Of a DNA stretch of 64,000 bases, positions 830 to 54,809 are shown piece by piece. The stretch's first letter is position 1, and the number at the start of each line of letters is the position of its first letter. A model generated the notes under the pieces. It worked only from the letters and a program-made list of their open reading frames with translations. It did not search any database and was not told where the DNA came from. Source of the stretch: Candidatus Uhrbacteria bacterium (GTDB taxonomy: Bacteria > Patescibacteriota > Patescibacteriia > JACPHY01); contig JACPHY010000015.1 of the NCBI GenBank assembly GCA_016188355.1, positions 1,040 to 65,039 on the forward strand, written 5' to 3'. Made by a program: the position numbers and the translations under genes.

Positions 830-3700
830 TCAAGTCCGCATTGCTTCCTTGAGATACTTCCCGGTGATCGACCGTTTCTCCTTTGCAATATCTTTTGGTG
901 TCCCCGCGACCACCACCTCGCCACCATGTACGCCGCCTTCGGGTCCCATATCGATGACCCAATCGGCGCTCTTGATGACATCGAGATTGTGTTCAATGAC
1001 GAGCACCGTATTGCCAACGTCCACCAATTTGCCGAGCACCTTGAGCAGCCGATCGATGTCGGCGAAATGCAGCCCGGTCGTCGGTTCATCCAGAATGTAG
1101 AGCGTGCGACCGGTGGCACGACGAGAAAGCTCCGTTGCGAGTTTAATACGCTGCGCCTCACCACCGGAGAGCGTCGTCGCGGATTGTCCGAGTTTCACGT
1201 AGCCCAATCCCACCTCCTCTAAAATCTCCAGCTTCTCGGCAATCGCGGGGATTGTTGCAAAGAACGCACGCGCCTCTTCGACGGTCATGTTGAGCACGTC
1301 AGAAATGTGCCGGCCCTTGTAATGAATCTCGAGCGCCTCGCGATTGTAGCGCTTCCCGTGGCATTCCTCGCATTCGACGTACACATCCGGAAGGAACTGC
1401 ATTTCAATTTTCACCATGCCGTCGCCCTGGCACGCCTCACAGCGCCCACCGACCACATTGAAACTGAATCGCCCCGCCTTGTATCCGCGCACTTTCGCTT
1501 CCGGCAATTCCGCGTAGAGTTCGCGCATCGGGGTGAAGACGCCCGTATACGTTGCCGGATTTGATCGCGGCGTCCGACCAATCGGCGACTGATCAATATC
1601 AATCACCTTGTCGATATGCTCCACGCCCGTGATGGTTTTATGCTTTCCGGGCGCATCTTTCGCGTTGTAGAACTTCTGATTCAGGAAACGGCTCAAGATA
1701 TCAATCATGAGCGTCGATTTTCCGGAACCCGAAACACCCGTGATGCACACGAGTTTCCCGAGTGGGATCGCCACGTCGACATTCTTCAAATTGTGCTCCG
1801 TCGCGCCTTTGATCGTAATCAATTTCCCATTCCCCCTCCGGTACGCCGCAGGCGATGCGATGGCCAGTGCACCGGACAGATATTTTCCGGTGAGCGACTC
1901 GGGGTGCTTCGCGATTTCTGCTGGCGTCCCCGCGGCAATAATTCTCCCCCCATGCTCACCCGCGCCCGGACCAATATCAATGAGGTAATCCGCGGCGCGC
2001 ATCGTTGCTTCATCGTGCTCCACCACGATCACCGTATTACCGAGATCACGCAATTCCTGGAGCGTCGTGAGTAGTTTGTCGTTATCGCGTTGATGCAATC
2101 CGATAGACGGCTCGTCGAGGATGTAGATCACCCCAGTCAACGCGGAACCAATCTGTGTCGCCAGCCGAATGCGTTGCGCCTCTCCGCCGGAAAGGGTAGA
2201 TGCTGCGCGGTCGAGCGTCAGGTAATCGAGGCCCACGTTCTGGAGGAACGTGAGTCGCGCGGTAATTTCCTTGAGCACGATTGCAGCAATCTTCGCCTCC
2301 CGCGCATCGAGCACGGGCGCATCGTGATGCGTGCGCTTCGCCGTCTTCCCCTTGCCGGTCGTCGGTACTGCATTTTCCGTTGCCCGCGCGAGGGACACGA
2401 AGAATGCGGCTGCATCTTCAATGGAAAGTCCGGTCACCACCGCAATGTTCTTGCCCGCCACGGTCACCGCGAGCGCCTCGGGACGCAGTCGCTCCCCATG
2501 GCACGCCGGGCACGGGGACGAACGCATGTAGTGCTCGATTTCCGAACGGATGTACTCAGAATCCGTTTCCTTGTGCTTCTGCTCGAGATACGGGATCACG
2601 CCCTGGAACCCTCCATCACCATAGAGAATGACGTCGAGCTGCTGCTTCGTGAGATCCTTCACTGGCGTTGCAGTCGTAAACCCATGGACTACCGCAACTC
2701 GCTCGAGCGTTTGGTACATCCAGCTCTGGTTGGCGAACACCTTTGTCCACGGCCGAATCGCACCCTGCGCAATGGTGAGGGTCTTGTTGGGAATAATGAG
2801 ATCCGCATCGAGCTCCAGAAGGGAACCAAGTCCGGAGCAGGTGGGGCATGCCCCATGCGGCGAGTTGAACGAAAAGTTGCGCGGCTCGAGTTCGGGAATA
2901 CTCACTCCGCATGCCGGACAGGAAAACAGTTGCGAGAAGAGGAGCACTTCCTGCTCCTGATCCGCGTCATTGAGCACCGCCGCCACGAGCAACCCATTCG
3001 CAAGGTCCAGTGCGGTTTCCGCAGAATCCGCAATCCGCGAACGCTCCGACGGATCCACAGTGACGCGATCCACCACCACTTCGAGGGAGTGCTTCTTCTG
3101 CTTATCTACCGTCAGGCTCGCCGCCTCATCAATCGTGTAGACCACACCATCGAGGCGCACGCGGGAATACCCCGCTTGATCCACCTTCTTCAAGATCGCC
3201 TTGTGCTCGCCCTTCTGATCGCGAATGAGCGGGGCGAGCAGTAGTACGCGCGTACCCTCTTCGAGCGTGAAGAGTCGATCCACGATTTGATCGATGGTCT
3301 GTCGCACCACCTCACGACCACACTGCGGACAGTGCGGGCGCCCGATGCGCGCGAACAGCAACCGGACGTAATCGTAAATTTCCGTGATCGTGCCGACCGT
3401 GGATCGTGGATTATGCGAGACGGTGCGCTGATCAATGGAAATGGTCGGCGATAATCCCTCGATGCTATCCACGTCCGGCTTGTCCATGACCCCCAAAAAT
3501 TGCCGCGCGTACGCGGACAACGACTCCACGTATCGACGCTGTCCTTCCGCGTAAATGGTATCGAACGCGAGCGACGATTTTCCCGAACCGGACAATCCAG
3601 TGAGCACCGTGAGCTTCCCGCGCGGGATCTCCGCGTTCACGCTCTTCAGGTTGTGCACGCGCGCACCACGAATGGTGATCTTGTCAGGGCCGAAGGACAT
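830..3700 (-). CDS. uvrA: excinuclease ABC subunit A (UvrA)
   Basis: N-terminus [21 protein letters not shown]...[36 protein letters not shown]. Two ABC ATPase modules (Walker [11 protein letters not shown], signature LSGGEAQR twice) and zinc-finger Cys pairs. Start set at the ATG at 3698-3700; the ORF track extends 16 codons further upstream. Confidence 0.95.
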
Positions 3701-3852
3701 AGCATTGGGGTGGAGGAAGGCGCCGCGGGTATTCCCCGCGCACCACAAAGCAGGCGTTCCGCCCGCACGTACGGGCTTGGAACGCTCAAATCAAGAGAAC
3801 CCATGGCTTCCAGAATAGATTCCTCCGGAAGACGCGTCAAGCAGTATCCAAA

Positions 3853-5160
3853 TTAACGATCATCGAAGTTGGCCCGGGTCACATTGAGATCACAGCGCAC
3901 CACGGGTGCCCCGGGTTTCTGGAATAACGCGTCCACTACTTCGCCGACTCCAAAAAACTCCTCCGCTGGAATTGCCAACCAATCGGATGCAGTAAAATCA
4001 TCGAAATCTGTTTCCCCTCCCTTGCTCTCGATGGGCCTCGCCTCTCCGGAGCAGGATTTCTTGCCCACGAGAAAGAAATCATCGCTGCCAGAACCAAAGG
4101 TTCCGCCCTCATCATTCACCTCTGCCGCCAATAAAAATCCACGCACCGCCTGACTGCGCTCGGTCAATGAGAGTGTGTTATATGACTTCCCGTTCACCGT
4201 ACAGGGCATTCCCCCTAATCCCTGAATTGCAGACTGCACCGCGAACGCATACGCCTGCTTCGCGTGCCGATCGTCCGCGTCGACCACGTCCACATCGTCC
4301 ACGGTCCATGTTCTTCCATCCGCGCACACCCCCATGAGCCGGATATTATTATCAATGAATGCGTCGCCATCATTGGTAATGGTTCCCCCAAATGCCCCTT
4401 TCTTGCAGGGATTCGGATCCGACGAATCAATTGGCAAACACACCTCCCCGCTTGGGCACACGTCACCCGTACATTGACCAGACGACGCACCGATCACGGT
4501 GAATATCTGCCCGCACTTCAGCTGGGATCGATCGGTAACGATTGATCCATTCGGACCGAATTTACGAATCTCGACCTCCCGTGGAAGACTCGAACAAAAC
4601 TTTTGACCAGTCGCAATCGGACGGAGCATCATCGTCCGCGGCAACGAGAGTTGCACGAGATCCGGGTTGATAGTTTGCAGTAATACGTACGACCCAATCG
4701 ACAAGAGGAGACCGATGAGCGCATTCCGAATCCACTGCTTCGCCGTATCAATACGCCCGGCACCCGCCGAAGTGATCCACATGAGCCCGCCCGCCATGAT
4801 CACCACCACCGCAAGGATCGCAGCGAATCGCACGAGCCACACGTACGCCAATACAATGTACTGACGGAGATCCGAAACCTCGCGCACATCCTCACCCCTT
4901 GGCGTCGCGAGGTGAATCTGCAACGCAACACGCTTTCCTGCGTAGCAATGCCCCCACTCCACACCACCACAGCCCTCCACCGCCTTCTCCCAATGCGTTT
5001 CCAGTGGTCCCAGATTCGCATGCGCGCATTGTTTCTCGGTCCAACACACGGGATTTTGCGCAGGAGCAACATCCGCTTGTCCGGGCAGCGGTCGCACCAT
5101 CGCTCCCAGCACCGCAAAAAATAGGATAATCCGCCACGTGCGATGCATACGCGATGTCAC
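3853..5160 (-). CDS. Cys-rich exported membrane protein: signal peptide, Cys-containing segment, two-helix hydrophobic hairpin, then a ~280-aa Cys/Asp/Gly-rich extracellular domain
   Basis: N-terminus MTSRMHRTWRIILFFAVLGAMV is signal-like. Hydrophobic helices IVLAYVWLVRFAAILAVVVIMAGGLMWI and ALIGLLLSIGSYVLLQTI. About 16 Cys residues. The start overlaps the stop of the upstream DsbA-like gene by 4 nt. Confidence 0.6.
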   Translation of the reverse strand: MTSRMHRTWRIILFFAVLGAMVRPLPGQADVAPAQNPVCWTEKQCAHANLGPLETHWEKAVEGCGGVEWGHCYAGKRVALQIHLATPRGEDVREVSDLRQYIVLAYVWLVRFAAILAVVVIMAGGLMWITSAGAGRIDTAKQWIRNALIGLLLSIGSYVLLQTINPDLVQLSLPRTMMLRPIATGQKFCSSLPREVEIRKFGPNGSIVTDRSQLKCGQIFTVIGASSGQCTGDVCPSGEVCLPIDSSDPNPCKKGAFGGTITNDGDAFIDNNIRLMGVCADGRTWTVDDVDVVDADDRHAKQAYAFAVQSAIQGLGGMPCTVNGKSYNTLSLTERSQAVRGFLLAAEVNDEGGTFGSGSDDFFLVGKKSCSGEARPIESKGGETDFDDFTASDWLAIPAEEFFGVGEVVDALFQKPGAPVVRCDLNVTRANFDDR

Positions 5161-5894
5161 TGCGGGTTATGCAAAAAATGATCCAACACCCGGAACAACG
5201 CTTCTCGGGGGATCACGCCTTCCACGCGCCGCGCATGCGCCGTATCGTTGCCGAGCACAAAAAACCAGGTCGGCGTTCCGCGGACACCGAGCTTCTGACC
5301 CGCCTCCACGTCTGCAGCCACCTCTGCGGCGAAGCGCCCGGAACTCAAGCACACATCAAACTGTTGCCCATCCAAACCGACCGCCCGTGCATACTTCCGC
5401 AGCGATGCATCATCCAAAATGCCCGCATGCGCAAAGAGCTTGTCGTGATACGCCCAAAACTTGCCCTGCGCATGCGCACACTGCCCCGCCTCCGCGGCAC
5501 GGCGCGCAAATTCATGGAGGGAATCGACCGGAAAATCGCGATACACTACCCGAAGGCGATTCCCGTATCGCGCCATCGCCTCACGAATGACCGGGAACGC
5601 ACGCAGAGAAAATGGGCACTGGAAATCACTGAACTCCACAATCGTCAGGCGCGCATCCGTAGCACCCATGGACGGATCATCGTCCGTGATGATCGGCACA
5701 TTCGGATCAATCGTCACCGGCACCGCGCCCGATTGCGCCTCCGTAAACTCCGAAGTACGTAACACCTCTACCGAAGTGGCACGCGGCACCGCCACACGGC
5801 GCGATACAATCAAAAACCAGCCGCCCAATGCCCCCGTGCTCCCCACATACACCAACAACGCAATGCCCCACCATCGGCGATACCATGAACGCAT
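5157..5894 (-). CDS. membrane-anchored DsbA-family thioredoxin-fold protein with a CXXS (C-P-F-S) active-site motif
   Basis: N-terminal TM segment WWGIALLVYVGSTGALGGWFLIV. Thioredoxin/DsbA core VEFSDFQCPFSLRAFPVIREAMARYGNRLRVVYRDFPV...FFVLGN. The second active-site Cys is replaced by Ser; confirmed on the DNA as gtggagttcagtgatttccagtgcccattttctctgcgtgcg (reverse strand). Confidence 0.8.
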   Translation of the reverse strand: MRSWYRRWWGIALLVYVGSTGALGGWFLIVSRRVAVPRATSVEVLRTSEFTEAQSGAVPVTIDPNVPIITDDDPSMGATDARLTIVEFSDFQCPFSLRAFPVIREAMARYGNRLRVVYRDFPVDSLHEFARRAAEAGQCAHAQGKFWAYHDKLFAHAGILDDASLRKYARAVGLDGQQFDVCLSSGRFAAEVAADVEAGQKLGVRGTPTWFFVLGNDTAHARRVEGVIPREALFRVLDHFLHNPQ

Positions 5895-6097
5895 ACATCA
5901 ACGAATCGTTGCCTCTCCGGGAGGCGAGGGACGCAAACCAACCGTACGCACTTGCAGTGTATCATTCTTGCATTTCCCATTCCCAATAATCACGCCTCGT
6001 CAGGACGTGATCATCCCACAGAACAACAGGAGCGCAATGGGTGCTGTCCGTGGATGAGCAACGGGCATATTTCCGGATACCAAGGATTCCGCTTTTA

Positions 6098-6127
6098 TTG
6101 ACACACCACACCAACCAATGATATGGT
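6098..6127 (+). promoter_or_regulatory. candidate sigma70-type promoter for secG
   Basis: TTGACA at 6098-6103, an 18-nt spacer, TG-extended -10 TATGGT at 6122-6127 (TG at 6119-6120), about 50 nt upstream of the secG ATG. Confidence 0.35.
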
Positions 6128-6178
6128 TTTGGGGTGAGGCATCACGCCTCTTTTTGCTATTCCCGTACTCTGGCTGAT

Positions 6179-6394
6179 ATGTCCGCCCTCCGCATTCTTC
6201 AAGTACTTAGCGCCATTTTGCTCATCGTGGTCGTCCTCCTCCAGCAACGCGGCACCGGCCTCGGCAGCTCGTTTGGCGGTGACAGCACCTCCTATCGCAC
6301 CATCCGTGGTCTCGAACGCACCCTTGCCGTGATCACCGCAGCACTCGCAGTCATCTTCTTTGGCAGCGCACTCGCGCAAATCGCGCTTTCGTAA
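6179..6394 (+). CDS. secG: preprotein translocase subunit SecG
   Basis: MSALRILQVLSAILLIVVVLLQQRGTGLGSSFGGDSTSY...AVITAALAVIFFG matches the SecG pattern (TM, LLQ.G.G...FGG, TM). Start taken at the internal Met of the 6134 ORF. Confidence 0.85.
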   Translation: MSALRILQVLSAILLIVVVLLQQRGTGLGSSFGGDSTSYRTIRGLERTLAVITAALAVIFFGSALAQIALS

Positions 6395-6539
6395 TACCCA
6401 CAATCCTCTCCGCCGCTGCCCCTGACTCCTCGTCGTTGTCATTGCGAGGAGTCCTCGACGAAACCATCCCACGCCATGCACCGGTAATGCTGCGCGCGCG
6501 ATTGTTTCGAGGACTCGCAATGACCGGCTCCATCTCATC

Positions 6540-8426
6540 ATGCCTCTTGCCGATCGCATTCGACACGTACTCCGATCGTTCCCTCTTCCCTCTGCACGAC
6601 AATTGCTCCGCCTCCCGACGGTCCTCGATGCACGGGAACGCATGCGCGCCATCGCCGGTATCGTAGCGCTGCTCACGGGCGGTGCCCTGCTATTCTATTC
6701 GTGGTACGAACGCACCACAGTGGAAGCTCCCGCAATCGGTGGTACCTACGTGGAGGGATTAGTTGGCGAACCACGATTCGTCAATCCTATTTTTGCGATG
6801 GCGAATGATGTGGATGCGGATCTCGCGCGACTCATCTATTCCGGTCTCTTCCGCACCGATCGCACGGGTGCAGTGGTCCCTGATCTCGCGGAGCGATACG
6901 AACTTTCTGACGACGGAAAATCCCTCACCGTCCAGCTCAAGGATGGTCTCCGTTGGCACGATGGCGCGCTCCTCACCGCGAGCGACGTGGTCTTCACCAT
7001 GAATCTCATTGAGGATCCGAATGCCGGAAGCCCGCTCCGCGGCAGTTTCCGCGGCGTGACGGTCGAGCGCGTAGATGATCGCACGGTACGATTCACCATT
7101 GAGCGACCGCTTGCCATTTTCCTGAGCGCGCTCACGGTGGGCATTCTCCCGGAGCATGTTTGGGTGGATATTCCGCCCAGTCATCTTCCCCTTGCCGAAA
7201 TGAACCTCCGACCAGTGGGTTCGGGTCCATTCGCATTTGTGGGACTCACAAAAGATCGGCGCGGCAGCATTCGTTCATATACCGTCGAACGCTACCCGGG
7301 ATACCACGACATCCCCGCTCGCATCGCGCGTATCACCTTCCGGCTCTACGGGAGCACCTCAGAGCTCCTCACCGCGTTCAATGGCCGAGAGGTAGACGGC
7401 ATCGGAACGCTGGTTCCCATGGGAGCGGCAGCGATCACGCGACACGACATCACCCGCTACCCCGTACATCTCCCACAAACAACGGCAATGTTCTTGAACG
7501 AAAAACGTGCACCGGCGCTCCGCGATACCGCGGTCCGACGCGCGCTCTCCATTGCCATTGATCGACGCACGCTCCTCACGGATGCACTCAACGGCGCTGG
7601 CACATTAGTGGGAGGACCACTCATTCCTGGATTTAGTCCAATTGCCGATCCTCCCGCACCAGATCCTTTCGATGCCGCCGGCGCAGCAACTGCGCTCGAT
7701 CGTGCGAAATGGGAACGCGTGGACACTGCGGCAATCATTCAAGCAAAAATTCGTTCTGCGCTCCTCGCACTAGAGGCCGCGAAGGCGAAAGCGGGCAAGA
7801 AGAAAAAAGAACTCGCCGCGACAGACGAGGAGCGAAAACAAATCGGGGATCGCATCCGGGCGGAGGTGACGGAAACGCAGCCGTACTATCGCCTTCGGAA
7901 TGGCACCGTGCTCGAAGTGACCATCACCACCCCCGATGCACCGGAATTCGTTGCCATCGCAGAACGCGTCCGTGACGCGTGGCGTGCTATTGGCGTCCGT
8001 GCAACCGTTGATGCGGTCTCCATTGAACGCATCCGCGGAGACGCCATTCCGAATCGGGCGTACGATGCACTCCTCTTCAGTCAAATTCTCGGTCCCGATC
8101 CCGACCCCTTCCCCTTCTGGCACTCCTCGCAAGTACGCCACCCCGGACTCAATCTCTCCTTCTTCTCCAATAAGGCAATCGATAAGGCACTCGAGGATGC
8201 ACGCGGCACGCTCGACCGCTCCGTGCGTGGACAGAAATACCAGGAATTCCAGCGACTCCTCGCCGAGGAGCGGCCTGCTATTTTCCTCATGACCCCCTCA
8301 CTCTCCTACGTCGTCAGCAATGCCGTCCGCGGCATCACCCTGGAGCAACCCACACAACCCACCGACCGATTCGCCACCATCACCGAATGGTATACTGAGG
8401 TGCAACGGGTGCGTAGGAAGAACTGA
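6540..8426 (+). CDS. ABC transporter substrate-binding protein, family 5 (OppA/DppA-like), N-terminally membrane anchored
   Basis: YVEGLVGEPRFVNPIFAMANDVDADLARLIYSGLFRTD...LTVQLKDGLRWHDGALLTASDVVFTM is typical of SBP family 5. Hydrophobic anchor IAGIVALLTGGALLF. Contains a Lys/Glu-rich helical insert. The true start may be the Met at 6642. Confidence 0.85.
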   Translation: MPLADRIRHVLRSFPLPSARQLLRLPTVLDARERMRAIAGIVALLTGGALLFYSWYERTTVEAPAIGGTYVEGLVGEPRFVNPIFAMANDVDADLARLIYSGLFRTDRTGAVVPDLAERYELSDDGKSLTVQLKDGLRWHDGALLTASDVVFTMNLIEDPNAGSPLRGSFRGVTVERVDDRTVRFTIERPLAIFLSALTVGILPEHVWVDIPPSHLPLAEMNLRPVGSGPFAFVGLTKDRRGSIRSYTVERYPGYHDIPARIARITFRLYGSTSELLTAFNGREVDGIGTLVPMGAAAITRHDITRYPVHLPQTTAMFLNEKRAPALRDTAVRRALSIAIDRRTLLTDALNGAGTLVGGPLIPGFSPIADPPAPDPFDAAGAATALDRAKWERVDTAAIIQAKIRSALLALEAAKAKAGKKKKELAATDEERKQIGDRIRAEVTETQPYYRLRNGTVLEVTITTPDAPEFVAIAERVRDAWRAIGVRATVDAVSIERIRGDAIPNRAYDALLFSQILGPDPDPFPFWHSSQVRHPGLNLSFFSNKAIDKALEDARGTLDRSVRGQKYQEFQRLLAEERPAIFLMTPSLSYVVSNAVRGITLEQPTQPTDRFATITEWYTEVQRVRRKN

Positions 8427-8443
8427 AGACGATCACTTTCGAG

Positions 8444-8526
8444 CCGCGGTGGTGGAATGGCAGACACGCATGGTTCAGGGCCATGTGCCCGCAAGGGCAT
8501 GGGGGTTCAAGTCCCCCCCGCGGCAA
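8444..8526 (+). tRNA. tRNA-Leu (anticodon CAG), long variable arm
   Basis: Hand fold: acceptor gccgcgg/ccgcggc, anticodon stem catgg/ccatg with loop ttCAGgg, long variable arm tgcccgcaagggca, T-arm ggggg-ttcaagt-ccccc, discriminator A, no encoded CCA. Confidence 0.85.
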
Positions 8527-8535
8527 AGACATCGT

Positions 8536-8690
8536 GGAGGAACCTCCCCCACTCCGCTCCTGAACGGAGCTTCGCGGGGCAAGCCGGTTTCCCTCCCGTG
8601 CCCCCTTCCCTCCAGACGGACGAAGCAACCCTACGGCCGCCTGCCCCGCGAAGCGCTGCGCGAAGTGGGGCTGCGCTCGGGCATCGGAAA
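8536..8690 (+). ncRNA. conserved structured tRNA-trailer element, copy 1 (see findings); unknown function
   Basis: The ~57-nt block aacctcccccactccgctcctgaacggagcttcgcggggcaagccggtttccctcc is near-identical (1 mismatch) to the reverse complement of 53467-53525. Distal block ctgccccgcgaagcgctgcgcgaagtggggctgcgctcggg is also conserved and base-pairs with gcttcgcggggca of block 1. Confidence 0.5.
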
Positions 8691-8822
8691 CCGAAAATTC
8701 GGACAGCAGACACCACGATTCCGTCTCATCTTTTAGATTTTCGAAACGCGCAATTTCCTTTTCATTTTCCATTCGACATTCTTTTTCTTCGCGCCGCTGC
8801 GTTTGTTGCGGATCCTCGATCT

Positions 8823-10670
8823 GCGCTCGCGTGCCGGACGCGCACTGTATTCATGTCTCCTATTGCTCCTGCCGTTCCCCCATCTCCTGCGGCTCTCACC
8901 GCACCCATGGGATCGCGTCTCCGACGACGCGGCGCCCGACCACCGCATCGTGGCCGACCACGACCCGTACCACAAGCCGCTGCAGTGCCCACGGAACACG
9001 CACGTGACGTCCTCCGCGTCATTCCGATTGGCGGCTGTGACGAAGTCGGGAAAAACATGACCATCCTCGAGTACGGGAATGATATCCTCATCATGGACAT
9101 GGGGGTCATGTTCCCCGAGGAAGACATGCCCGGAGTGGACTTCATCATTCCGAACATCAAGTACCTCAAGGGGAAAGAGAAGAACATTCGCGGCATCTGT
9201 ATCACCCACGGCCACTTCGACCACATTGGTGCCGTGAGCTATCTCGCGCCGCGCCTCGGGAACCCGCCCATCTTCGGCACACCCCTTACCCTCGCGCTCA
9301 TCAAAAAGCGCCACGAGGAATTCCGAGTGCAGCCGCTCCGGCTCCATCCCATTCATCCCGGAGAACAAATCCAGCTCGGCTGCTTCCGCGTGGAGGCATT
9401 CTACGAGAGCCACAACATTCCGGATTCCGTTGGACTCATCGTCCAAACACCGCACGGCATCGTCGTGAATACGGGTGACTTCAAATTTGACCTCGCCCCG
9501 CTCGGCACCACCCCCGGCGATATCGCAAAGGTGGCCGCACTCGCCGATAAGCACGTGCTCGCGCTCCTCTCCGATTCCACCGCCGCCGAAAAACCGGGGC
9601 ACCAAATCTCGGAGTCGGAGATCACAAAAACCCTCGACCAAATCGTCAAGGATTCTCCGGGGCGCATTATCGTGGGCCTCTTCTCGACGCTCCTCTCGCG
9701 CATCCAGCAGCTCCTCTGGATTGCCGAGAAGCACAATCGCAAAGTCGCGATCGAGGGGTTCTCCATGAAAACGAACATTGAAATCGCGCGCGAACTTCGG
9801 TACATGCAATACCCGAAGGGGCTCATCATAGAAACCGCCGAACTCCTGAAACTCCCTCCGGAGCACCAGATGTTCCTCGTGACCGGCGCCATGGGACAGG
9901 ACCGTGCCGCGCTCATGCGCATCGCGAATCGGGAACACCAGCTCCTGGAGATTGAACCAGGCGACACCGTCATCTTCTCGTCCTCCGTGATTCCGGGAAC
10001 AGAGCGCTCCGTGCAGCGCCTCAAGGACAACGTGGCACGACAGGGCGCGAACGTCATTCACTATCAGATGATGGACGTGCACTCCGGTGGACACGGACTG
10101 CAGGATGACCTGAAGCTCATGATTAAGCTCGTGAATCCGCAGTACTTCATTCCCGTGCACGGCAACTACTCCTTCCTCGTGACCCACGGCAAACTCGCGC
10201 AGCAGGTCGGCATCCCCAAGGAAAACGTGCTCATTCCGGAGAATGGTCGCGTGATCACCTTTGACCGCACCGGTGGCCGCATGACCAACGAACGCGTGCC
10301 CGCGGAACACGTTATGGTGGATGGACTCGGCGTCGGCGACGTCTCCGAAGTCGTGCTCCGCGATCGTCAGCAGCTTGCGGAGGACGGCATGCTCGTCATC
10401 ATCGCCACCATCGAACGGGAAACCGGCGCACTCGCCACGAACCCCGATCTCATCTCCCGCGGATTCGTCCACCTCAAAGAATCAAAACCGCTCCTCGAGG
10501 TGGTACGGCAGAAGGTGCGGGAAATCGTGGAATCCAGTGGAGACGCAAAATCTCGCAGCGGCCCTATCGAGCCCTATCTCCGCACAAAGATCCGCGACGA
10601 AATCGGTAACTTCCTGTTCCAAAAAACAGAACGCCGCCCAATGATTCTGCCCGTGGTCATCGAAGTATAA
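8823..10670 (+). CDS. rnj: ribonuclease J (metallo-beta-lactamase / beta-CASP RNase)
   Basis: VIPIGGCDEVGKNMTILEYGNDILIMDMGVMFPEEDMPGVDFIIPNIKYL...GICITHGHFDHIGAVSYL (HxHxDH motif) plus beta-CASP and C-terminal domains. The ORF-track start at 8457 would overlap tRNA-Leu, so the ATG at 8823 (MSPIAP...) is used. Confidence 0.9.
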   Translation, partial: ALACRTRTVFMSPIAPAVPPSPAALTAPMGSRLRRRGARPPHRGRPRPVPQAAAVPTEHARDVLRVIPIGGCDEVGKNMTILEYGNDILIMDMGVMFPEEDMPGVDFIIPNIKYLKGKEKNIRGICITHGHFDHIGAVSYLAPRLGNPPIFGTPLTLALIKKRHEEFRVQPLRLHPIHPGEQIQLGCFRVEAFYESHNIPDSVGLIVQTPHGIVVNTGDFKFDLAPLGTTPGDIAKVAALADKHVLALLSDSTAAEKPGHQISESEITKTLDQIVKDSPGRIIVGLFSTLLSRIQQLLWIAEKHNRKVAIEGFSMKTNIEIARELRYMQYPKGLIIETAELLKLPPEHQMFLVTGAMGQDRAALMRIANREHQLLEIEPGDTVIFSSSVIPGTERSVQRLKDNVARQGANVIHYQMMDVHSGGHGLQDDLKLMIKLVNPQYFIPVHGNYSFLVTHGKLAQQVGIPKENVLIPENGRVITFDRTGGRMTNERVPAEHVMVDGLGVGDVSEVVLRDRQQLAEDGMLVIIATIERETGALATNPDLISRGFVHLKESKPLLEVVRQKVREIVESSGDAKSRSGPIEPYLRTKIRDEIGNFLFQKTERRPMILPVVIEV

Positions 10671-18825: not shown

Positions 18826-19312
18826 GCTGCGGGTGTCCGGGTGATCGCCCTATCGCAAGATAGGGAGGAAAGTCCGAGCACTTTCGACTCGGAAGAGTCG
18901 TGACATGAGGTAGTCGTTAACGACGACGGGGAGCGACGAGATTGGAGAACGCGCTAGCGCCTTCAATGTCGCCAAGCCCACGGAAGTCCGCCGGTGCAGG
19001 CGGACGTGCGTCTCCGGGCAACCGGAGGGATCCCGCGTGCGGGGCATCGGACTTCGCACGTGACGACCGCAACAGAAAAAATACCGCCAAGGCTCCGATC
19101 CTGAACGCCTTGGTAAGGGTGAAATGGTGGAGTAAGCGCCCACCGGCGCCGCGGTGACGCGGCGAGCATGGCAAACACCTACCCAGTGCAAGGGGAGTAC
19201 CCCCGCTTGAGCCATGCAGTAATGCATGGCCCAGAGAGATGATCACCACCCGCGGAGGACGCGCAAGCGCTCTCCCGCGTGGGACAGAACTCGGCTTACA
19301 CGACACCCGCAG
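18826..19312 (+). ncRNA. rnpB: RNase P RNA, bacterial type A (rnpB)
   Basis: P1 helix gctgcgggtgtc (18826-37) pairs with gacacccgcagc (19301-12). P4 strands agGGAGGAAAGTCCGagc and ACAGAAcTCGGCTTAc. J11/12-P12 region GGTAAGGGTGAAAtGGTGgaGTAAGcGCcCACC. gcAACAGAaAAaAtACCGCC. No ORF of significance in the region. Confidence 0.85.
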
Positions 19313-19350
19313 CATACGAAACCCCGGAATATCTCCGGGGTTTCGTATGC
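19311..19350 (+). terminator. hairpin terminator after rnpB
   Basis: gcatacgaaaccccgga-atatc-tccggggtttcgtatgc: 17-bp perfect stem immediately after the RNase P RNA 3-prime end (no T-run). Confidence 0.5.
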
Positions 19351-19431
19351 ATGACTTCTCTGCATTCGCTCTCTCCAGCCATTGCCATTTCCCTTCCACA
19401 TGATACGGTACGATGTCGGTAGCAGTACCCT

Positions 19432-26232: not shown

Positions 26233-29200
26233 ATGCTCATGAGCACGCCCCAGACGCGATGGCATCGTCTCGCGCCACTCCTCGTCCTCTGCGCGCTCGC
26301 GCTCCTGCCGCAATCCGTATCCGCAGGCTGGTTCGATTGGCTCTTCCCACCACCGCCCCCTCCCCCGCCCCCACCCGCATTGGAAGTCCGATGCGACGAT
26401 GCACTCCGATGGACCATTCCCAATGTGGAACTCGGGCAATATCGAACGTGCCCGAAAGCCGGTGAGGCGTATGCGGGCGACATCCTCATCATCGACGCGA
26501 AGCACTTCCCCGCGGACAGCGAGGCAAAGCCCGCGCGCATCGCCAAGCTCTACATCTACCAAAACGGCCAATGGCCCACCCGCGCGCTCACCTACGGACC
26601 AACCCGAACCGGGAACGGCAACTTCCGTCTGATGGCGCTCGTGCCCTCGTCCCTCGCGCCGGGCAATTACACCTTCATCCTGCGGGTCGTGGACACCTGC
26701 GGCACACCCTGCACGCGCCCCATACAGTACGAAGGACTCTGTCCGTCCACCGAGTGCCTCCAGGAGCATCGCGACGTCTTCGTGCAGGCATCGTTTGATC
26801 TCCGCATCCGTGATCCCAAACAGGAGGTGCGTCCACCCATCAACCCCGGCAACGGACCGTTCGACTTCACCTGTTCCTGGACCGAAAAAACCTGGAATGC
26901 AGCAACGGAACAATTTGATACGGTAAAAAAATCGAGCAAGGACACCTGCCCCGGTGGCTCTTCATTTTCGCTTAACGCAGGACCTTTTCCACGCGCATAC
27001 CGAGACGAAATGCTCAAGGTGTACCTCCGAGGACCCGCGGACGCAATGGGACTCTGCAAGGATGGCGCGGAGGGTCCCACGCAGTACGGCCATAACGGAT
27101 TCTGCTACTTCCCGCAATACACTCCATTCGCCGGACGGACGTGCGATCCCATGATCGTGTTCCAAGGACCGCGTTGTCGTCAGGGCAAGAGCGACCCCAT
27201 GACCTGCGATGGACCCAATCGTCCGCACTCGCAGACGCCAACGAATTGCCGCATCGCCGTCCAGCATCACCTCGTTGCTCCGCCGGGAACTACCTACGCA
27301 TTGGTCGTGCGGAATTCCTGGGCATCGAATCCTCCAACCCCAGATCGATGGGAGGTGGTCGGGCAATCAGTACTCATCACCGAGCCCATCACGGAACCCA
27401 AGCAAACGTATCGCGGTAAGCAGTTCACCGTCACCCTCGATCGCGATCAGCTCACTTTCGAGAATCCGTACGGATATCCGACGCTCGTTCCGCAGTACAT
27501 CCGAAAAGGACAGCTCATTCCGGGTGCGCGCTTCCAACTGCCGGTGCGCTGGGATGCACCCGCCGGAACCACCTTCCCCTTCTTCCCGCGACACAAGATG
27601 CAGCTCGTCCTAGATGCGGATAGTGCCGGTAATGGCGGAACGGTGCTCCGGGAAGGAAACGCCGCGGAGGCAAAATCGGGGAAAACCACTACGTGGGAAA
27701 ATTTGCAATCACCCAGCGATCTCCAACCGGGGCGACATCGCCTCACCATCCGCTGCACCAACTGCGATGACCAGCTCACCGTCGGCGATCCCGCAATTGG
27801 GAATCGCCCGCGTCCCGTATTCTATGTGCCCACAAGCGTAGAGGTCGAGGTGGTGGATCTTGCCGCTCTCCCCCTGCCCGCCCTTCGCGTACAGCCGACC
27901 GCAGTCGCGCCACACGGAACAATAACGGTATTCGGTACCAATTTTCCACCCGATGCCCGCATCACCGAGGTGACCATTGCGGGACGCGGCGGCAGCGCAA
28001 CGCTCGGCAGCACGTATCGCGCTCCACCATATGAACGATTCACGTTCACCGTGGAAGGACAGCGGGTCACCAAGGAACAGCCTCGCATCGACGTACCCGT
28101 AGCATCCGATGGGCGCATGGCGCTCGTCATCCCACTACCGCCACTCGCCGGAGATCTCGTGGCCGGCCGCGGAGAGGTGCGCGTGGAGGTGACCGTCCGC
28201 GACGGCGCCACCACGTTCAAGAAGCAAACCACCTTCACGATCGATGCGTCGGATTGTCCACTCGGAGCGGAGCGTCCCATTCTTTCCTTTGGCAAAGAAC
28301 GGAGCGATTGGATGGCGCCGACCGTTCCCGTCACCACCGCGGCACCACTCGGGTACTTCCAAGGACAAACGGCGGAAATCTACGGGAAACACTTCGCATG
28401 TCGATCACCCATCACGAAGGTGACGGCGACGTGGAAATCCGGCGGGAACACGTACGGACCCATCGCGCTGCCCCTCCGCAAACTCGAACGCGAGGAAGCG
28501 GCGCCATTTGCCGTCGTGGGTCAAGAGGCAACCAACCATGATGGCACGATCGGGGGGAGCAGCGGACTCGCCCTGCGACCGACCGGATCCCTCTGGTGGC
28601 GCAATCATCTTGATGTGGATCACGTCCTCATCGCGATTACAGATCAGAGCGGCCGCACGAGTGCGCCTACACGGCTTGAGCTCCAGTCGCCCCCCTTCCG
28701 TGCCACGCCGGTCACTCCGAGCGGCGTTGCCGCCGGCGAACGCGCCGCGATCCGGCTCTCCGGTTTTACCTCCGGCCACCGCATTGTCATCGCACCGCTT
28801 CCGAATGAAGGTCTGGGCAATGAGCCGCTCGAATACGCAGAAAATCTCACATGGAATACGGCGCTGGGAAAACGATTTGCGCAGCTCACGAAGAACTTCC
28901 GCCTGGAACGCAATCCGGATACCGTGGACTACCAAATCCCCAGCGACCTCACGACCGGAGTCCACACCTTCGCGGTGGTCGACACCACTGAGGGCGAGGA
29001 GGCGCGCGTGGATTTGAGTCGCCTCCATCATCAGCTCCTCCGCTCGCGACCGCGCGCCCTCTTCACCATGGAGATCGGCGGCAAGAAAACCGCGCCTGAT
29101 GATCAGAAAGACCAGAAGACGGACATTCCGGGGAAAGAAAACCTCGCGATCACCGTAGCGCCCACCACTGCGGCGCCAGGAACCCGCATCACCATCACAC

Positions 29201-53931: not shown

Positions 53932-54726
53932 CTATTGCATACCCAAAAGGAACAAGACGAGTACACCAAGCGCGATGCGGTACCAGCCGAACGGTGCCAG
54001 CGACCGTGTCCGCACGTAGCGAAGGAATACCGCCAACACCCCCCACGCGACGACAAACGCCACCACAAACCCAAGAGACAGGAGACCGATCATGCGCACA
54101 TCGAACGGCACCGAGGTCTTCAGGAGCGCATACCCTGATGCAGCAGCAAGCGTCGGGACTGCGAGAAAAAACGAGTACTTCGCCGCAAGCTCCCGCGAGC
54201 ATCCGAGGAGCATCGCTCCGATGATCGTCGCTGCCGATCGCGAAACGCCGGGCATGAATGCGAGACACTGGATACTCCCAATGCCGATGACCGTCCGGAG
54301 CGGGAGCTCTTCGAGCACCTGCCAACGCGGTTTCCACGTTCGCCGCTCGATCGCGAGGAGCACGACCCCGCCGACCGCGAGCGCGATCGCGACCACGATC
54401 GGACGGAAGAACATCCGCTCCAGTGACTCCGCGAAAAGTGCGCCGACCGCGAGCGCCGGGAGCACCCCAACACCGATACGCCACCAACGCCGCGGAAGGA
54501 CGTGCGGAGATGCGGCCTCCCCCACGACGAGCTCGCGACGGAAGACGATGAGCACCGCCGCGATCGCGCCAAACTGAATCACGATATCAAAAAGCGCGGT
54601 GAGGCGCGCACCGGAAAACGCGAACCACTGATTCGCGAGGATGAGGTGTCCCGTGGAGGAAATCGGAAGGAACTCCGTCACTCCCTCCACAATACCCAAG
54701 ACGATCGCGGCGATGATATCGCTCAT
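53932..54726 (-). CDS. uppP: undecaprenyl-diphosphate phosphatase (UppP/BacA)
   Basis: MSDIIAAIVLGIVEGVTEFLPISSTGHLIL...; multi-TM; the C-terminal region also matches UppP. The ORF-track N-terminal extension (to 55326) overlaps the next gene and is rejected. Confidence 0.9.
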   Translation of the reverse strand: MSDIIAAIVLGIVEGVTEFLPISSTGHLILANQWFAFSGARLTALFDIVIQFGAIAAVLIVFRRELVVGEAASPHVLPRRWWRIGVGVLPALAVGALFAESLERMFFRPIVVAIALAVGGVVLLAIERRTWKPRWQVLEELPLRTVIGIGSIQCLAFMPGVSRSAATIIGAMLLGCSRELAAKYSFFLAVPTLAAASGYALLKTSVPFDVRMIGLLSLGFVVAFVVAWGVLAVFLRYVRTRSLAPFGWYRIALGVLVLFLLGMQ

Positions 54727-54809
54727 AGAAATGCAGTGCGCGACGGCCCGTGAGCCGTCGCGCCATTGATTGCATGCTATCGCATCATCGCACCGCGCGC
54801 ACCCCCGCA

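What the first reader, a model, noticed from the sequence alone, without database searches (positions are those of the whole stretch)
3853..5894. Operon of a CXXS (CPFS) DsbA-like thioredoxin with a Cys-rich exported membrane protein
The DsbA-fold gene (5157..5894, minus) has its active site as Cys-Pro-Phe-Ser instead of the canonical CPxC. This was verified on the DNA (tgcccattttct). It overlaps by 4 nt the start of a 435-aa protein with a signal peptide, a two-helix membrane hairpin (IVLAYVWLVRFAAILAVVVIMAGGLMWI / ALIGLLLSIGSYVLLQTI) and a roughly 280-aa extracellular domain carrying about 16 Cys. Single-Cys thioredoxin folds usually act as isomerase- or reductase-like partners, or form mixed disulfides, rather than as oxidases, so this may be a dedicated folding or attachment factor for the neighbouring Cys-rich protein. 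The two-helix hairpin with small-residue motifs (AGGLMWITSAGAG) is loosely reminiscent of VirB2/TrbC-type pilins fused to a large ectodomain, but no other type IV secretion gene is present, so that resemblance is speculative.
Basis: partly seen in the sequence, partly recalled or inferred. Interest (0 to 1): 0.55.

Follow-up and report, generated by a model that had tools for sequence, protein, structure and literature searches.

The report
Single-cysteine DsbA with disulfide-rich pilin-like partner
In this ultrasmall (Patescibacteria) bacterium, a disulfide-bond enzyme that has lost one of its two catalytic cysteines sits next to a membrane protein with seven predicted disulfides and a secretion-pilus-type anchor; the pairing, and the repeated loss of that cysteine, recur across this bacterial group and I found no published description of either.

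Summary
ORF 5157-5894(-) is a membrane-anchored DsbA-family protein whose active site reads Cys-Pro-Phe-Ser. It abuts ORF 3853-5160(-), which has a signal peptide, a two-helix hairpin and 14 cysteines (not about 16).

The window is from a Candidatus Uhrbacteria genome. The partner belongs to a very large Patescibacteria family. All 14 of its cysteines are invariant or nearly so, and 53 of 56 members hit Pfam T4SS_pilin. The C-terminal domain matches no Pfam family and no solved structure.

All 40 scorable full-length members in other genomes follow a DsbA gene (39 directly, one as a tandem second copy). In some lineages the pair lies in a VirB4 type IV secretion locus.

The four syntenic orthologues read CPFC and the closest homologue CPYC. 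Across the clade, however, 29 of 64 partner-linked DsbAs are CxxS or CxxT, from at least 12 independent switches. These variants keep the first cysteine and are under purifying selection, so CPFS is neither an error nor decay.

Best reading: a co-transcribed catalyst and client, with a single-cysteine DsbA acting by mixed-disulfide chemistry, probably as an isomerase. The mechanism is inferred. Interest 0.6.

The parts
5157..5894 (-). Gene for a membrane-anchored DsbA-family thioredoxin-fold protein (245 aa) with a single-cysteine CPFS active site
   Evidence: Pfam PF01323 E 2.8e-20 and PF13462 E 4.1e-17; nearest solved relatives are 3GYK (E 3.9e-19), 7UNO/7UNN, 4PWO, ScsC and BdbD.
5805..5873 (-). 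N-terminal transmembrane anchor of DsbA (residues 8-30, WWGIALLVYVGSTGALGGWFLIV), preceded by MRSWYRR. The catalytic domain is predicted to face outside.
   Evidence: Hydropathy scan (TM at residue 11). The orientation by the positive-inside rule is an inference.
5607..5618 (-). Active-site codons tgc cca ttt tct = Cys93-Pro-Phe-Ser96. Ser replaces the resolving cysteine.
   Evidence: Identical in an independent assembly. Aligned to the CxxC of 39 homologues by hmmalign.
5268..5279 (-). Gly-Thr-Pro-Thr (residues 206-209): the loop that holds the cis-proline in thioredoxin-fold enzymes
   Evidence: the Thr-Pro is kept in almost all of the aligned DsbA sequences, whether the active site is CxxC, CxxS or CxxT.
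5478..5480 (-). Cys139, one half of a presumed structural disulfide in the helical insert
   Evidence: Invariant in every aligned DsbA sequence that covers the column. Its pairing with Cys182 is inferred from co-invariance.
5349..5351 (-). Cys182, presumed partner of Cys139
   Evidence: No other Cys occurs in the catalytic domain of any CxxS/T homologue.
3853..5160 (-). Gene for the Cys-rich pilin-like membrane protein (435 aa from GTG; 431 aa from the ATG at 5148)
   Evidence: AlphaFold2 model: mean pLDDT 84.4, pTM 0.68.
5157..5160 (-). GTGA overlap of the DsbA stop codon and the partner's GTG start (or an 8-nt gap if the ATG at 5148 is used)
   Evidence: Orthologous pairs show gaps of about -35 to +160 nt.
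5074..5160 (-). Signal peptide (residues 1-29, ending PLPGQA)
   Evidence: P24 and A29 are invariant in the six closest homologues. The model shows a helix at residues 4-21. The cleavage site is inferred.
4870..5073 (-). N-terminal extracellular segment (residues 30-97) carrying C39, C45, C64 and C72
   Evidence: All four Cys are invariant in 56 diverse members and are present or absent together.
4654..4869 (-). VirB2-like two-helix membrane hairpin (residues 98-169) ending in the LQTINPDLV motif. The connecting loop is basic.
   Evidence: Model helices at 98-130 and 134-164. PF18895 T4SS_pilin is hit by 53 of 56 family members, but the window protein itself reaches only E 0.11. The family HMM's hairpin part matches short pilins next to VirB4.
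3856..4653 (-). C-terminal beta-rich extracellular domain (residues 170-435) with 10 Cys (189, 216, 230, 235, 241, 252, 279, 320, 370, 423) and an acidic EVND...DD motif
   Evidence: The Cys are invariant or at least 90% conserved. Co-occurrence defines modules 189-252, 279+320 and 370+423. No Pfam family, no PDB sequence match and no Foldseek PDB hit at E<=0.001.

Best explanation
This is a conserved two-gene module of Patescibacteria.

The first gene encodes a DsbA-family thiol-disulfide oxidoreductase tethered to the outer face of the membrane. The second gene is co-transcribed and probably translationally coupled. It encodes a protein anchored by a VirB2-like (T4SS_pilin) helical hairpin that displays two extracellular segments holding 14 conserved cysteines, presumably seven disulfides. 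I infer that this protein is a principal client of the DsbA and a surface or pilus-associated component linked to the Patescibacteria type IV secretion system.

In this genome the DsbA has lost its resolving cysteine (CPFS), as have about 45% of its relatives in other species. Such an enzyme cannot store an active-site disulfide, so it cannot act as a classical DsbB/VKOR-recycled oxidase. It most likely works through its single nucleophilic Cys93. This cysteine would attack client disulfides to form transient mixed disulfides that a client cysteine then resolves. That is disulfide shuffling (isomerase or chaperone activity), and it needs neither a re-oxidising nor a reducing partner.

Shown here: the anatomy, the conservation of the pairing, the recurrence and selective maintenance of CxxS/T, and the link of relatives to VirB4 loci. 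Inferred: the client relationship, the disulfide pattern, the isomerase chemistry and the surface or pilus role.
For: Pairing:
- Of 40 scorable full-length partner genes, 39 have DsbA directly upstream on the same strand, with gaps of about -35 to +160 nt. The 40th is a tandem second copy (L003 corrected).
- The pair survives in at least four different neighbourhoods: SecG|DsbA-partner-UvrA; PD40-DsbA-partner-RadA; next to ribosomal S2/EF-Ts; and around a por operon.

Client logic:
- All 14 Cys are invariant or at least 90% conserved across 56 members that share 25-43% identity.
- All 14 lie on predicted extracellular segments.
- Hairpin proteins in loci with a DsbA have a median of 16 Cys (n=83), against 6 (n=14) in loci without one. 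Mann-Whitney p=9e-4, not corrected for phylogeny.

Type IV secretion link:
- PF18895 is hit by 53 of 56 members.
- Twelve loci have a VirB4-like ATPase 1-3 kb upstream of a hairpin gene.
- L043 reads VirB4-x-x-hairpin-PD40-DsbA-hairpin-RadA. This agrees with PMC12102498, which reports T4SS loci with radA and recG in class ABY1.

Single-cysteine state is real and functional:
- In genome-contig loci the fourth position is C in 35, S in 20 and T in 9.
- An NJ tree with Fitch parsimony gives at least 12 switches from a Cys root, with whole clades fixed for CxxT or CxxS.
- Ser uses both TCN and AGY codons.
- The first Cys, Cys139 and Cys182 are invariant wherever aligned, and the Thr-Pro loop is nearly so.
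- No CxxS/T homologue has a compensating extra Cys.
- dN/dS within single-cysteine clades is 0.05-0.24, against 0.07-0.08 in CxxC pairs.

Established knowledge (my own): CxxS variants of PDI keep isomerase activity but lose oxidase activity, and natural CxxS members of the PDI family exist (also noted in PMC13628048).
Against: - No experiment and no structural model of a complex links the two proteins.
- Much of the adjacency lies inside a block of housekeeping genes (RNase J, SBP_bac_5, SecG, UvrA) that is itself conserved in 22-42 of 52 loci. Inherited gene order therefore explains part of the signal.
- Starting from DsbA instead of the partner, two of four Patescibacteria lineages keep DsbA but lack the partner next door. 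DsbA therefore probably has other clients.
- The window encodes two exported TIG-domain giants with 33 and 30 Cys.
- The window protein itself is below the Pfam threshold for T4SS_pilin (E 0.11), and no T4SS gene lies in the window.
- The four syntenic orthologues read CPFC and the closest homologue CPYC. The change here is therefore recent, and its functional consequence in this particular lineage is untested.
- Whether the genome holds a second, canonical DsbA or a VKOR/DsbB outside the 64 kb is unknown.
Confidence: 0.55

Rival explanations
1. General housekeeping oxidoreductase plus inherited gene order. The DsbA serves all exported proteins, its position next to the Cys-rich protein is only conserved synteny, and CPFS is a tolerated, nearly neutral weakening. 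Disulfides would form spontaneously or through small-molecule oxidants in these organisms.
For: - The whole block RNase J<-SBP_bac_5<-SecG | DsbA->partner->UvrA is conserved.
- DsbA persists without the partner in L086/L087 and L091.
- Other Cys-rich exported proteins occur in the window.
- No VKOR/DsbB-like ORF was seen in the window.
- The frequent C/S/T switching could reflect relaxed constraint on that one position.
Against: - The pair stays together in several unrelated neighbourhoods, including a VirB4 locus.
- Start and stop codons overlap or nearly touch.
- The first Cys is never lost in the roughly 70 sequences aligned, and single-cysteine clades are under strong purifying selection. 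This argues against simple decay of the redox function.
- The Cys content of hairpin proteins tracks the presence of DsbA.
Confidence: 0.25
2. Peroxide- or small-disulfide-driven oxidase. The lone Cys93 is oxidised to a sulfenic acid, or to a mixed disulfide with a small thiol. It passes that oxidising equivalent to the client, whose second cysteine closes the disulfide. This would be a quinone-independent route for making disulfides in organisms without respiratory chains.
For: - CxxS and CxxT are the motifs typical of thioredoxin-fold enzymes that use a single reactive Cys, such as the CxxT of glutathione peroxidases (own knowledge, not tested here).
- Ser and Thr are the only replacements seen among the 29 non-Cys sites.
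- No DsbB/VKOR-like gene was found in the window.
- No paper in the searched library links Patescibacteria with VKOR or DsbB.
Against: This is pure inference. No peroxidase-type residues were identified. Many relatives keep CxxC, so the ancestral chemistry was dithiol. The oxygen or peroxide exposure of these groundwater organisms is unknown.
Confidence: 0.1
3. Covalent attachment or retention factor. The single-cysteine DsbA forms a long-lived intermolecular disulfide with an unpaired cysteine of the partner, holding or presenting it, in the manner of ERp44.
For: Thioredoxin-fold proteins that lack the resolving Cys trap mixed disulfides (PMC13628048, PMC7949104). Both proteins are membrane-tethered and made together.
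Against: The partner has an even number of Cys (14), and partner Cys counts are mostly even whether the neighbouring DsbA is C, S or T: odd counts occur in 5 of 25, 2 of 18 and 3 of 9. All 14 Cys are conserved as co-occurring sets. About half of the clade keeps CxxC, which would resolve such a bond.
Confidence: 0.05
4. Artefact. The Ser codon is a sequencing or assembly error, or a minority allele, of a normal CPFC gene.
For: The four syntenic orthologues have CPFC and the 75%-identical homologue P0008 has CPYC. TGT to TCT is a single-base change.
Against: - The sequence is identical over 4,874 bp in an independent assembly.
- The next residue also differs from relatives (S-L-R versus C-R-A or C-R-R).
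- The same replacement occurs in 29 of 64 related species, with both Ser codon classes and with Thr.
Confidence: 0.03

Closest known systems
TrbB and TraF of F-like plasmid type IV secretion systems
   Same: They are thioredoxin-fold proteins encoded with a T4SS and thought to fold its Cys-rich periplasmic components (TraN 22 Cys, TraU 11, TraH 6). TrbB is a disulfide isomerase and chaperone. TraF has lost the CxxC motif altogether (PMC11315126).
   Different: TrbB and TraF are soluble proteins of diderm plasmids, more like DsbC or thioredoxin. They are not membrane-anchored DsbA-family (PF01323/PF13462) proteins. Their clients are not pilin-hairpin fusions. A recurrent CxxS/T state that keeps the first Cys is not described for them.
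MdbA of Actinobacteria (Corynebacterium diphtheriae DsbA, PDB 4PWO) and other monoderm DsbA-like proteins (BdbD 3EU3, ScsC 4GXZ)
   Same: They are among the nearest solved sequence relatives. They are membrane-anchored or lipoprotein DsbA-fold enzymes acting outside a single membrane. MdbA is needed to fold pilins (own knowledge).
   Different: All are CxxC oxidases, recycled by VKOR or DsbB-type partners where these are known. They are general rather than operon-linked to one client. Their pilins are sortase-type, not VirB2-like.
Natural CxxS members of the protein disulfide isomerase family (for example yeast Eug1p, ERp44)
   Same: The resolving Cys is replaced by Ser while the nucleophilic Cys is kept. 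They act through mixed disulfides, either as isomerases or in thiol-mediated retention (own knowledge; CxxS isoforms are noted in PMC13628048).
   Different: They are eukaryotic ER proteins with a PDI domain architecture and are unrelated in descent to this DsbA clade. No bacterial DsbA clade with about 45% CxxS/T turned up in my literature searches.
VirB2/TrbC-like pilins of Patescibacteria (Pfam T4SS_pilin PF18895)
   Same: The partner shares the signal peptide plus two-helix hairpin. The family is widespread in Patescibacteria, often in arrays and often near virB4 (PMC12102498).
   Different: Typical members are short. The VirB4-linked examples here are 128-205 aa with 0-1 Cys. The window protein is 435 aa, with a 68-residue Cys-bearing N-terminal segment and a 265-residue Cys-rich C-terminal domain of unmatched fold. 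It lies away from any T4SS gene, and its own Pfam score is below threshold.
Staphylococcus aureus DsbA (a DsbA without DsbB)
   Same: It is a monoderm DsbA that works without a dedicated membrane re-oxidase (own knowledge). This is a precedent for partner-free Dsb chemistry.
   Different: It keeps CxxC and is not linked to a specific client gene.

Membership tests
DsbA family (Pfam PF01323 DSBA / PF13462 Thioredoxin_4) | Sequence match to the thioredoxin fold with the inserted helical domain | tested here: met
   PF01323 scores 73.4 bits (cut-off 25.6) and PF13462 scores 63.3 bits (cut-off 23.2). phmmer matches solved DsbA-like chains: 3GYK at E 3.9e-19 and 4PWO at E 5.8e-14.
DsbA family (Pfam PF01323 DSBA / PF13462 Thioredoxin_4) | CxxC active-site dithiol | tested here: not met
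   The motif is CPFS (codons at 5618-5607). The first Cys is present and the second is Ser. The protein is a homologue of the family, but it is not a classical dithiol oxidase.
DsbA family (Pfam PF01323 DSBA / PF13462 Thioredoxin_4) | Conserved cis-proline loop opposite the active site | tested here: met
   G-T-P-T at residues 206-209 aligns with the Thr-Pro of nearly all homologues. The cis conformation itself was not tested.
DsbA family (Pfam PF01323 DSBA / PF13462 Thioredoxin_4) | Extracytoplasmic location | tested here: inconclusive
   One N-terminal hydrophobic helix (residues 8-30) follows a basic N-terminus. The orientation is inferred from the positive-inside rule.
DsbA family (Pfam PF01323 DSBA / PF13462 Thioredoxin_4) | Re-oxidation by a DsbB or VKOR membrane partner | tested here: inconclusive
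   The 64-kb window holds no multi-pass membrane ORF with a CxxC of that kind and no second DsbA. The rest of the genome could not be searched.
VirB2/TrbC-type T4SS pilin (Pfam PF18895 T4SS_pilin, PF04956 TrbC) | Signal peptide followed by two hydrophobic helices joined by a short basic loop | tested here: met
   Sequence. The AlphaFold2 model has helices at 98-130 and 134-164 with block-mean pLDDT 84-92 over residues 101-160. The loop is GAGRIDTAKQWIRN.
VirB2/TrbC-type T4SS pilin (Pfam PF18895 T4SS_pilin, PF04956 TrbC) | Match to the family profile above the curated cut-off | tested here: inconclusive
   The window protein scores 13.0 bits against a cut-off of 26.6 (E 0.11). However, 53 of 56 aligned family members match at E<=0.01, best 2.1e-12, and homologues P0002 and P0006 carry the precomputed domain.
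VirB2/TrbC-type T4SS pilin (Pfam PF18895 T4SS_pilin, PF04956 TrbC) | Encoded with T4SS machinery (VirB4 and others) | tested here: not met
   Neither the window nor any of the roughly 40 full-length orthologue loci holds a VirB4 next to the gene. More distant hairpin relatives do lie 1-3 kb from VirB4 in 12 loci. In L043, DsbA and a Cys-rich hairpin protein follow in the same gene string.
VirB2/TrbC-type T4SS pilin (Pfam PF18895 T4SS_pilin, PF04956 TrbC) | Small size and polymerisation into a pilus | not testable with these tools
   At 435 aa with two ectodomain segments it is far larger than classical pilins. Whether it polymerises, caps a pilus or merely uses the hairpin as an anchor is unknown.
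Monothiol (CxxS/CxxT) thioredoxin-fold isomerases | Nucleophilic Cys retained, resolving Cys replaced, and no compensating Cys elsewhere | tested here: met
   C93 is invariant, S96 is present, and no CxxS/T homologue has an extra Cys in its catalytic domain.
Monothiol (CxxS/CxxT) thioredoxin-fold isomerases | Demonstrated disulfide-shuffling activity | not testable with these tools
   This needs biochemical assays (see decisive next steps).

The most novel reading that the evidence does not exclude
Patescibacteria of the Uhrbacteria/Magasanikbacteria radiation have evolved, many times independently, a single-cysteine DsbA that makes or shuffles disulfides without any quinone-linked recycling enzyme. 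It would work through sulfenic-acid, small-disulfide or pure exchange chemistry. Its job would be to mature a disulfide-rich, pilin-anchored surface protein of the type IV secretion apparatus that these epibionts need to live on their hosts. This would be a previously undescribed, partner-free branch of bacterial oxidative protein folding, tied to the host-interaction machinery of an uncultured phylum.
Probability: 0.15. Interest if true: 0.8.

Novelty: new variant of a known kind. Interest (0 to 1): 0.6.

Why it matters
Disulfide-bond formation in bacteria is understood mainly through DsbA/DsbB or VKOR oxidation and DsbC/DsbD isomerisation. Both depend on a two-cysteine active site and on membrane recycling partners tied to quinones or cytoplasmic thioredoxin. 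Patescibacteria lack most respiratory machinery, and how they fold their many cysteine-rich surface proteins is unknown.

This work finds a DsbA clade in which the resolving cysteine has been swapped for Ser or Thr at least a dozen times, yet the protein stays under purifying selection. That suggests a simpler chemistry that needs no recycling partner. The system is directly testable with a handful of recombinant proteins and natural C/S/T variants.

It also adds two unrecognised players to the Patescibacteria type IV secretion story: a DsbA, and large disulfide-rich pilin-hairpin fusion proteins of unmatched fold. These are candidates for host-contact functions in organisms whose T4SS is reported to be essential for epibiotic growth (PMC12102498, PMC11665869).

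Tried and rejected
Searches that failed or found nothing:
- Foldseek against the PDB gave no hit at E<=0.001.
- A family profile against PDB sequences gave none at E<=1. The ectodomain fold therefore stays unassigned.
- The search for related loci with the 56-sequence alignment failed for lack of a conserved stretch. It was redone with a 26-sequence subset and the pattern L[NQ]TINP[AD]LV.
- The first regular expression for the active site missed CPN-type motifs. It was replaced by hmmalign columns.
- The consensus promoter and terminator scan of 3500-6600 gave nothing above shuffles.
- Rfam found no family in the ORF-free gap of L087.
- NCBIfam gave only sub-threshold hits: Rcas_1661 thioredoxin-like lipoprotein at 72.7 bits against a cut-off of 190, and a Mycoplasma ICE pilin-like protein at E 0.25.
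- Literature searches found nothing on DsbA, VKOR or disulfides in Patescibacteria.

Hypotheses rejected:
- Sequencing error was rejected.
- A stable covalent DsbA-partner adduct is disfavoured by the parity of partner Cys counts.
- A relocated resolving cysteine was rejected.
- A second DsbA or a second hairpin paralogue in the window was not found.
- A VKOR/DsbB-like ORF was not seen in the window.

Limit of the model: coordinates of the AlphaFold model are not exposed, so no disulfide map could be read from it. Only Cys co-occurrence modules were obtained.


Full report
**1. The observation**

The window has 60% G+C. Its partner protein is 100% identical to an NCBI hypothetical protein of a Candidatus Uhrbacteria genome.

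ORF 5157-5894(-) is 245 aa and matches Pfam DSBA (PF01323, E 2.8e-20) and Thioredoxin_4 (PF13462, E 4.1e-17). Its nearest solved relatives are DsbA-like proteins: 3GYK, the Corynebacterium diphtheriae DsbA 4PWO, ScsC and BdbD. It has one N-terminal hydrophobic helix after a basic N-terminus. The active site reads FSDFQ-Cys93-Pro-Phe-Ser96, encoded by tgc cca ttt tct at 5618-5607. Its only other cysteines are C139 and C182.

ORF 3853-5160(-) starts with a GTG that overlaps the DsbA stop codon (GTGA). NCBI instead uses the ATG four codons later. The protein has a signal peptide, a 68-residue segment with four Cys, two long hydrophobic helices joined by a basic loop, and a C-terminal domain of about 265 residues with ten Cys. 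The total is 14 Cys, not about 16.

An independent Logan assembly of run SRR12113422 matches window 3623-8496 with no mismatch, so the Ser codon is not an assembler artefact.

**2. The partner belongs to a very large family**

The word-indexed search found only six relatives. A profile search of 1.84 billion cluster representatives found 24,578 proteins at E<=0.001 and 333 at E<=1e-30, and many of these align over the full length.

In an alignment of 56 diverse full-length members (25-43% identical to the window protein), ten of its cysteines are invariant and the other four are at least 90% conserved. Presence and absence patterns across 250 sequences group the cysteines into modules: 39/45/64/72, then 189-252, then the pairs 279+320 and 370+423. 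This suggests seven disulfides and at least two specific pairings, which is an inference.

Fifty-three of the 56 members hit Pfam T4SS_pilin PF18895 (best E 2.1e-12), although the window protein alone reaches only E 0.11.

The AlphaFold2 model is confident (mean pLDDT 84.4, pTM 0.68). It shows the helical hairpin (98-130, 134-164) and a beta-rich C-terminal domain. That domain has no Pfam family, no PDB sequence match and no Foldseek PDB hit at E<=0.001.

**3. The gene pair is deeply conserved**

The four closest relatives all show DsbA followed by the partner.

A scan of one genome per species with the hairpin motif returned 188 relatives, of which 80 loci were kept. Judged by family membership and gene context, all are Patescibacteria metagenome-assembled genomes: Magasanik-, Uhr-, Falkow-, Kerfeld-, Parcu- and Saccharibacteria and others. 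Several carry wrong titles such as 'uncultured Gammaproteobacteria'.

Local HMM searches show that, of 40 full-length members with enough upstream sequence, 39 have a DsbA gene directly upstream on the same strand. Gaps range from about -35 to +160 nt. The 40th is the second copy of a tandem duplicate (L003 corrected).

A caveat applies. The whole block RNase J <- SBP_bac_5 <- SecG | DsbA -> partner -> UvrA is conserved in 22-42 of 52 loci, so part of the adjacency is inherited gene order.

The pair nevertheless persists in other settings:
- after a PD40-like beta-propeller gene and before RadA and RecG (L082, L084, L072, L067);
- beside ribosomal S2 and EF-Ts genes;
- in at least 14 loci, around a pyruvate:ferredoxin oxidoreductase operon (DsbA-porG-porD-porA-hairpin protein-porB-hairpin protein).

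Starting from DsbA rather than from the partner gives a weaker picture. Two lineages have the pair, and two have DsbA without the partner next door. The partner thus always travels with DsbA, but the reverse does not hold. This fits a client and catalyst relationship in which the catalyst also has other clients. The window itself encodes exported TIG-domain giants with 33 and 30 Cys.

**4. Link to type IV secretion**

However, 12 of the 80 loci carry a VirB4-like ATPase (P-loop_TraG, AAA_10 and TraC_F_IV domains) 1-3 kb upstream of a hairpin-family gene. The conserved order is 167 aa - 226 aa - VirB4 - x - x - hairpin - PD40-like propeller. In L043 that string continues directly with DsbA (CPYC), a second Cys-rich hairpin protein and RadA.

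This agrees with the published survey. That survey found VirB2-like PF18895 pilins across Patescibacteria, often near virB4, and found T4SS loci of class ABY1 associated with recG and radA (PMC12102498). The survey does not mention disulfides, thioredoxins or DsbA.

Hairpin proteins in loci that contain a DsbA have a median of 16 Cys (n=83), against 6 (n=14) in loci without one. The Mann-Whitney p value is 9e-4, not corrected for phylogeny.

**5. The CPFS site in context**

The four syntenic orthologues read CPFC and the 75%-identical homologue reads CPYC. The change in this genome is therefore recent.

Across the partner-linked DsbA genes from other species, the picture changes. By hmmalign columns, the fourth residue is Cys in 35, Ser in 20 and Thr in 9, so 45% lack the resolving cysteine. 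The first Cys, C139 and C182 are invariant wherever aligned, and the Thr-Pro loop is nearly so.

By comparison, long non-Patescibacteria homologues show 86 CxxC motifs and 1 with Ser, plus 2 further regex hits ending in Ala.

Further points:
- A neighbour-joining tree, built with the four active-site columns masked, needs at least 12 Cys/non-Cys switches from a Cys root by Fitch parsimony. It contains deep clades fixed for CxxT (8 species) or CxxS (7 species).
- Ser is encoded by both TCN (14) and AGY (7) codons, each one step from TGY. Thr (ACN, 9) is one further step.
- No CxxS/T protein has a compensating extra cysteine.
- dN/dS within single-cysteine clades is 0.05-0.24, similar to CxxC pairs at 0.07-0.08.

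The single-cysteine state is therefore real, recurrent and maintained by selection.

**6. Mechanism**

A DsbA without the second cysteine cannot hold the active-site disulfide that a classical oxidase donates. It also cannot be recycled by DsbB or VKOR in the usual way.

It can still attack disulfides or oxidised thiols with Cys93 and form mixed disulfides that a client cysteine resolves. This is the chemistry of disulfide isomerases. It is retained by CxxS variants of protein disulfide isomerase (own knowledge; natural CxxS isoforms are noted in PMC13628048). A single-cysteine enzyme needs neither re-oxidation nor reduction, which would suit organisms with minimal redox machinery.

I therefore favour a co-transcribed catalyst and client pair in which the DsbA acts as a shuffling enzyme or chaperone for the seven-disulfide pilin-like protein (confidence 0.55 for the whole statement).

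Rival explanations:
- A general housekeeping DsbA with inherited synteny and a tolerated weakening (0.25).
- A peroxide- or small-disulfide-driven oxidase using a sulfenic intermediate (0.10).
- A stable covalent retention complex (0.05). This is disfavoured because partner Cys counts are mostly even whatever the DsbA state.
- Sequencing error (0.03).

**7. Comparison with what is known**

Closest in function are TrbB and TraF of F-like plasmids. These are thioredoxin-fold proteins encoded with a T4SS and thought to fold its Cys-rich components, and TraF lacks the CxxC (PMC11315126).

Closest in sequence and location are the monoderm DsbA-like proteins such as MdbA, BdbD and ScsC.

Closest in chemistry are the natural CxxS members of the PDI family.

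The hairpin is a member of the Patescibacteria T4SS_pilin family at family level. However, the protein is far larger than a classical pilin, lies away from T4SS genes in this genome, and carries ectodomains of unmatched fold.

As a DsbA-family member it meets the fold and cis-proline-loop criteria and fails the CxxC criterion. It is a homologue, but not a classical dithiol oxidase.

**8. Novelty and verdict**

I found nothing in the searchable literature on DsbA, VKOR/DsbB or disulfide formation in Patescibacteria, or on DsbA genes linked to PF18895 proteins.

The individual ingredients are known kinds. New here are the strict pairing, the embedding of the pair in some T4SS loci, and the repeated, selected loss of the resolving cysteine. 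I rate it a new variant of a known kind, with interest 0.6.

Noticed in passing
L050 803-6933 (also L049, L051, L053, L055, L060-L062, L064, L065, L069, L071, L074, L077): In at least 14 Patescibacteria loci, pilin-hairpin genes are interleaved in a pyruvate:ferredoxin oxidoreductase operon headed by a DsbA gene. The order is DsbA-porG-porD(Fer4)-porA-hairpin protein-porB(TPP_enzyme_C)-hairpin protein. The second hairpin protein of L050 also carries a Peptidase_C39_2 domain.
   Followed up: partly
L043 116-11679; also L057, L059, L068, L070, L075, L078-L081, L083, L085: There is a conserved T4SS gene string: 167 aa - 226 aa - VirB4-like ATPase - two small genes - hairpin pilin - PD40-like beta-propeller of about 420 aa. 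The propeller protein also directly precedes DsbA in L082, L084, L072 and L067. Its role is unknown.
   Followed up: partly
L087 5700-6500 (same in L086): An ORF-free stretch of about 800 nt lies between DsbA and UvrA, exactly where the Cys-rich gene sits in relatives. It has no Rfam family at gathering score and no remnant of the partner by HMM.
   Followed up: partly
window 18829-19314 (+): Bacterial RNase P RNA class A (165 bits). The mechanical ORF 18917-19399(-) over it is therefore spurious.
   Followed up: no
window 8443-8525 (+) and 8457-10670 (+): A tRNA lies at the 5' end of the 737-aa RNase J ORF. The orthologue in L001 is 599 aa, so the listed start is over-extended across the tRNA.
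   Followed up: no
window 26233-31569 (+) and 32206-36363 (+): Two giant predicted surface proteins (1778 and 1385 aa) have an N-terminal hydrophobic segment, IPT/TIG domains, and 33 and 30 Cys. They are other possible clients of the DsbA.
   Followed up: partly
window 53932-55326 (-): An undecaprenyl-diphosphatase (BacA) domain covers only residues 207-456 of a 464-aa ORF. The 200-residue N-terminal extension is unexplained or is an over-called start.
   Followed up: no
P0145, P0147, P0180, P0193: Some family hits of 600-890 aa contain three or four separate matches to the hairpin region. These are tandem pilin-like hairpins in one polypeptide.
   Followed up: no
L093 1222-3623: A 294-aa CPFS DsbA homologue (P0117) sits directly after Penicillinase_R and Peptidase_M56 (BlaR-type) genes. 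Closely related cluster representatives differ at the fourth position (P0105 and P0112 read CPFC; P0107 and P0117 read CPFS).
   Followed up: no
L009, L011, L013, L015, L021 and other CAY*/CAZ* records: Many loci that carry this Patescibacteria-type locus come from records titled 'uncultured Gammaproteobacteria bacterium', and one from a record titled 'Candidatus Udaeobacter'. These are probably mislabelled bins.
   Followed up: no
L032, L034, L037, L042, L044, L046, L052: A sub-family of partners (535-798 aa) shares only the N-terminal segment and hairpin with the window protein and carries 46-48 Cys. All seven neighbouring DsbAs are CxxS.
   Followed up: partly
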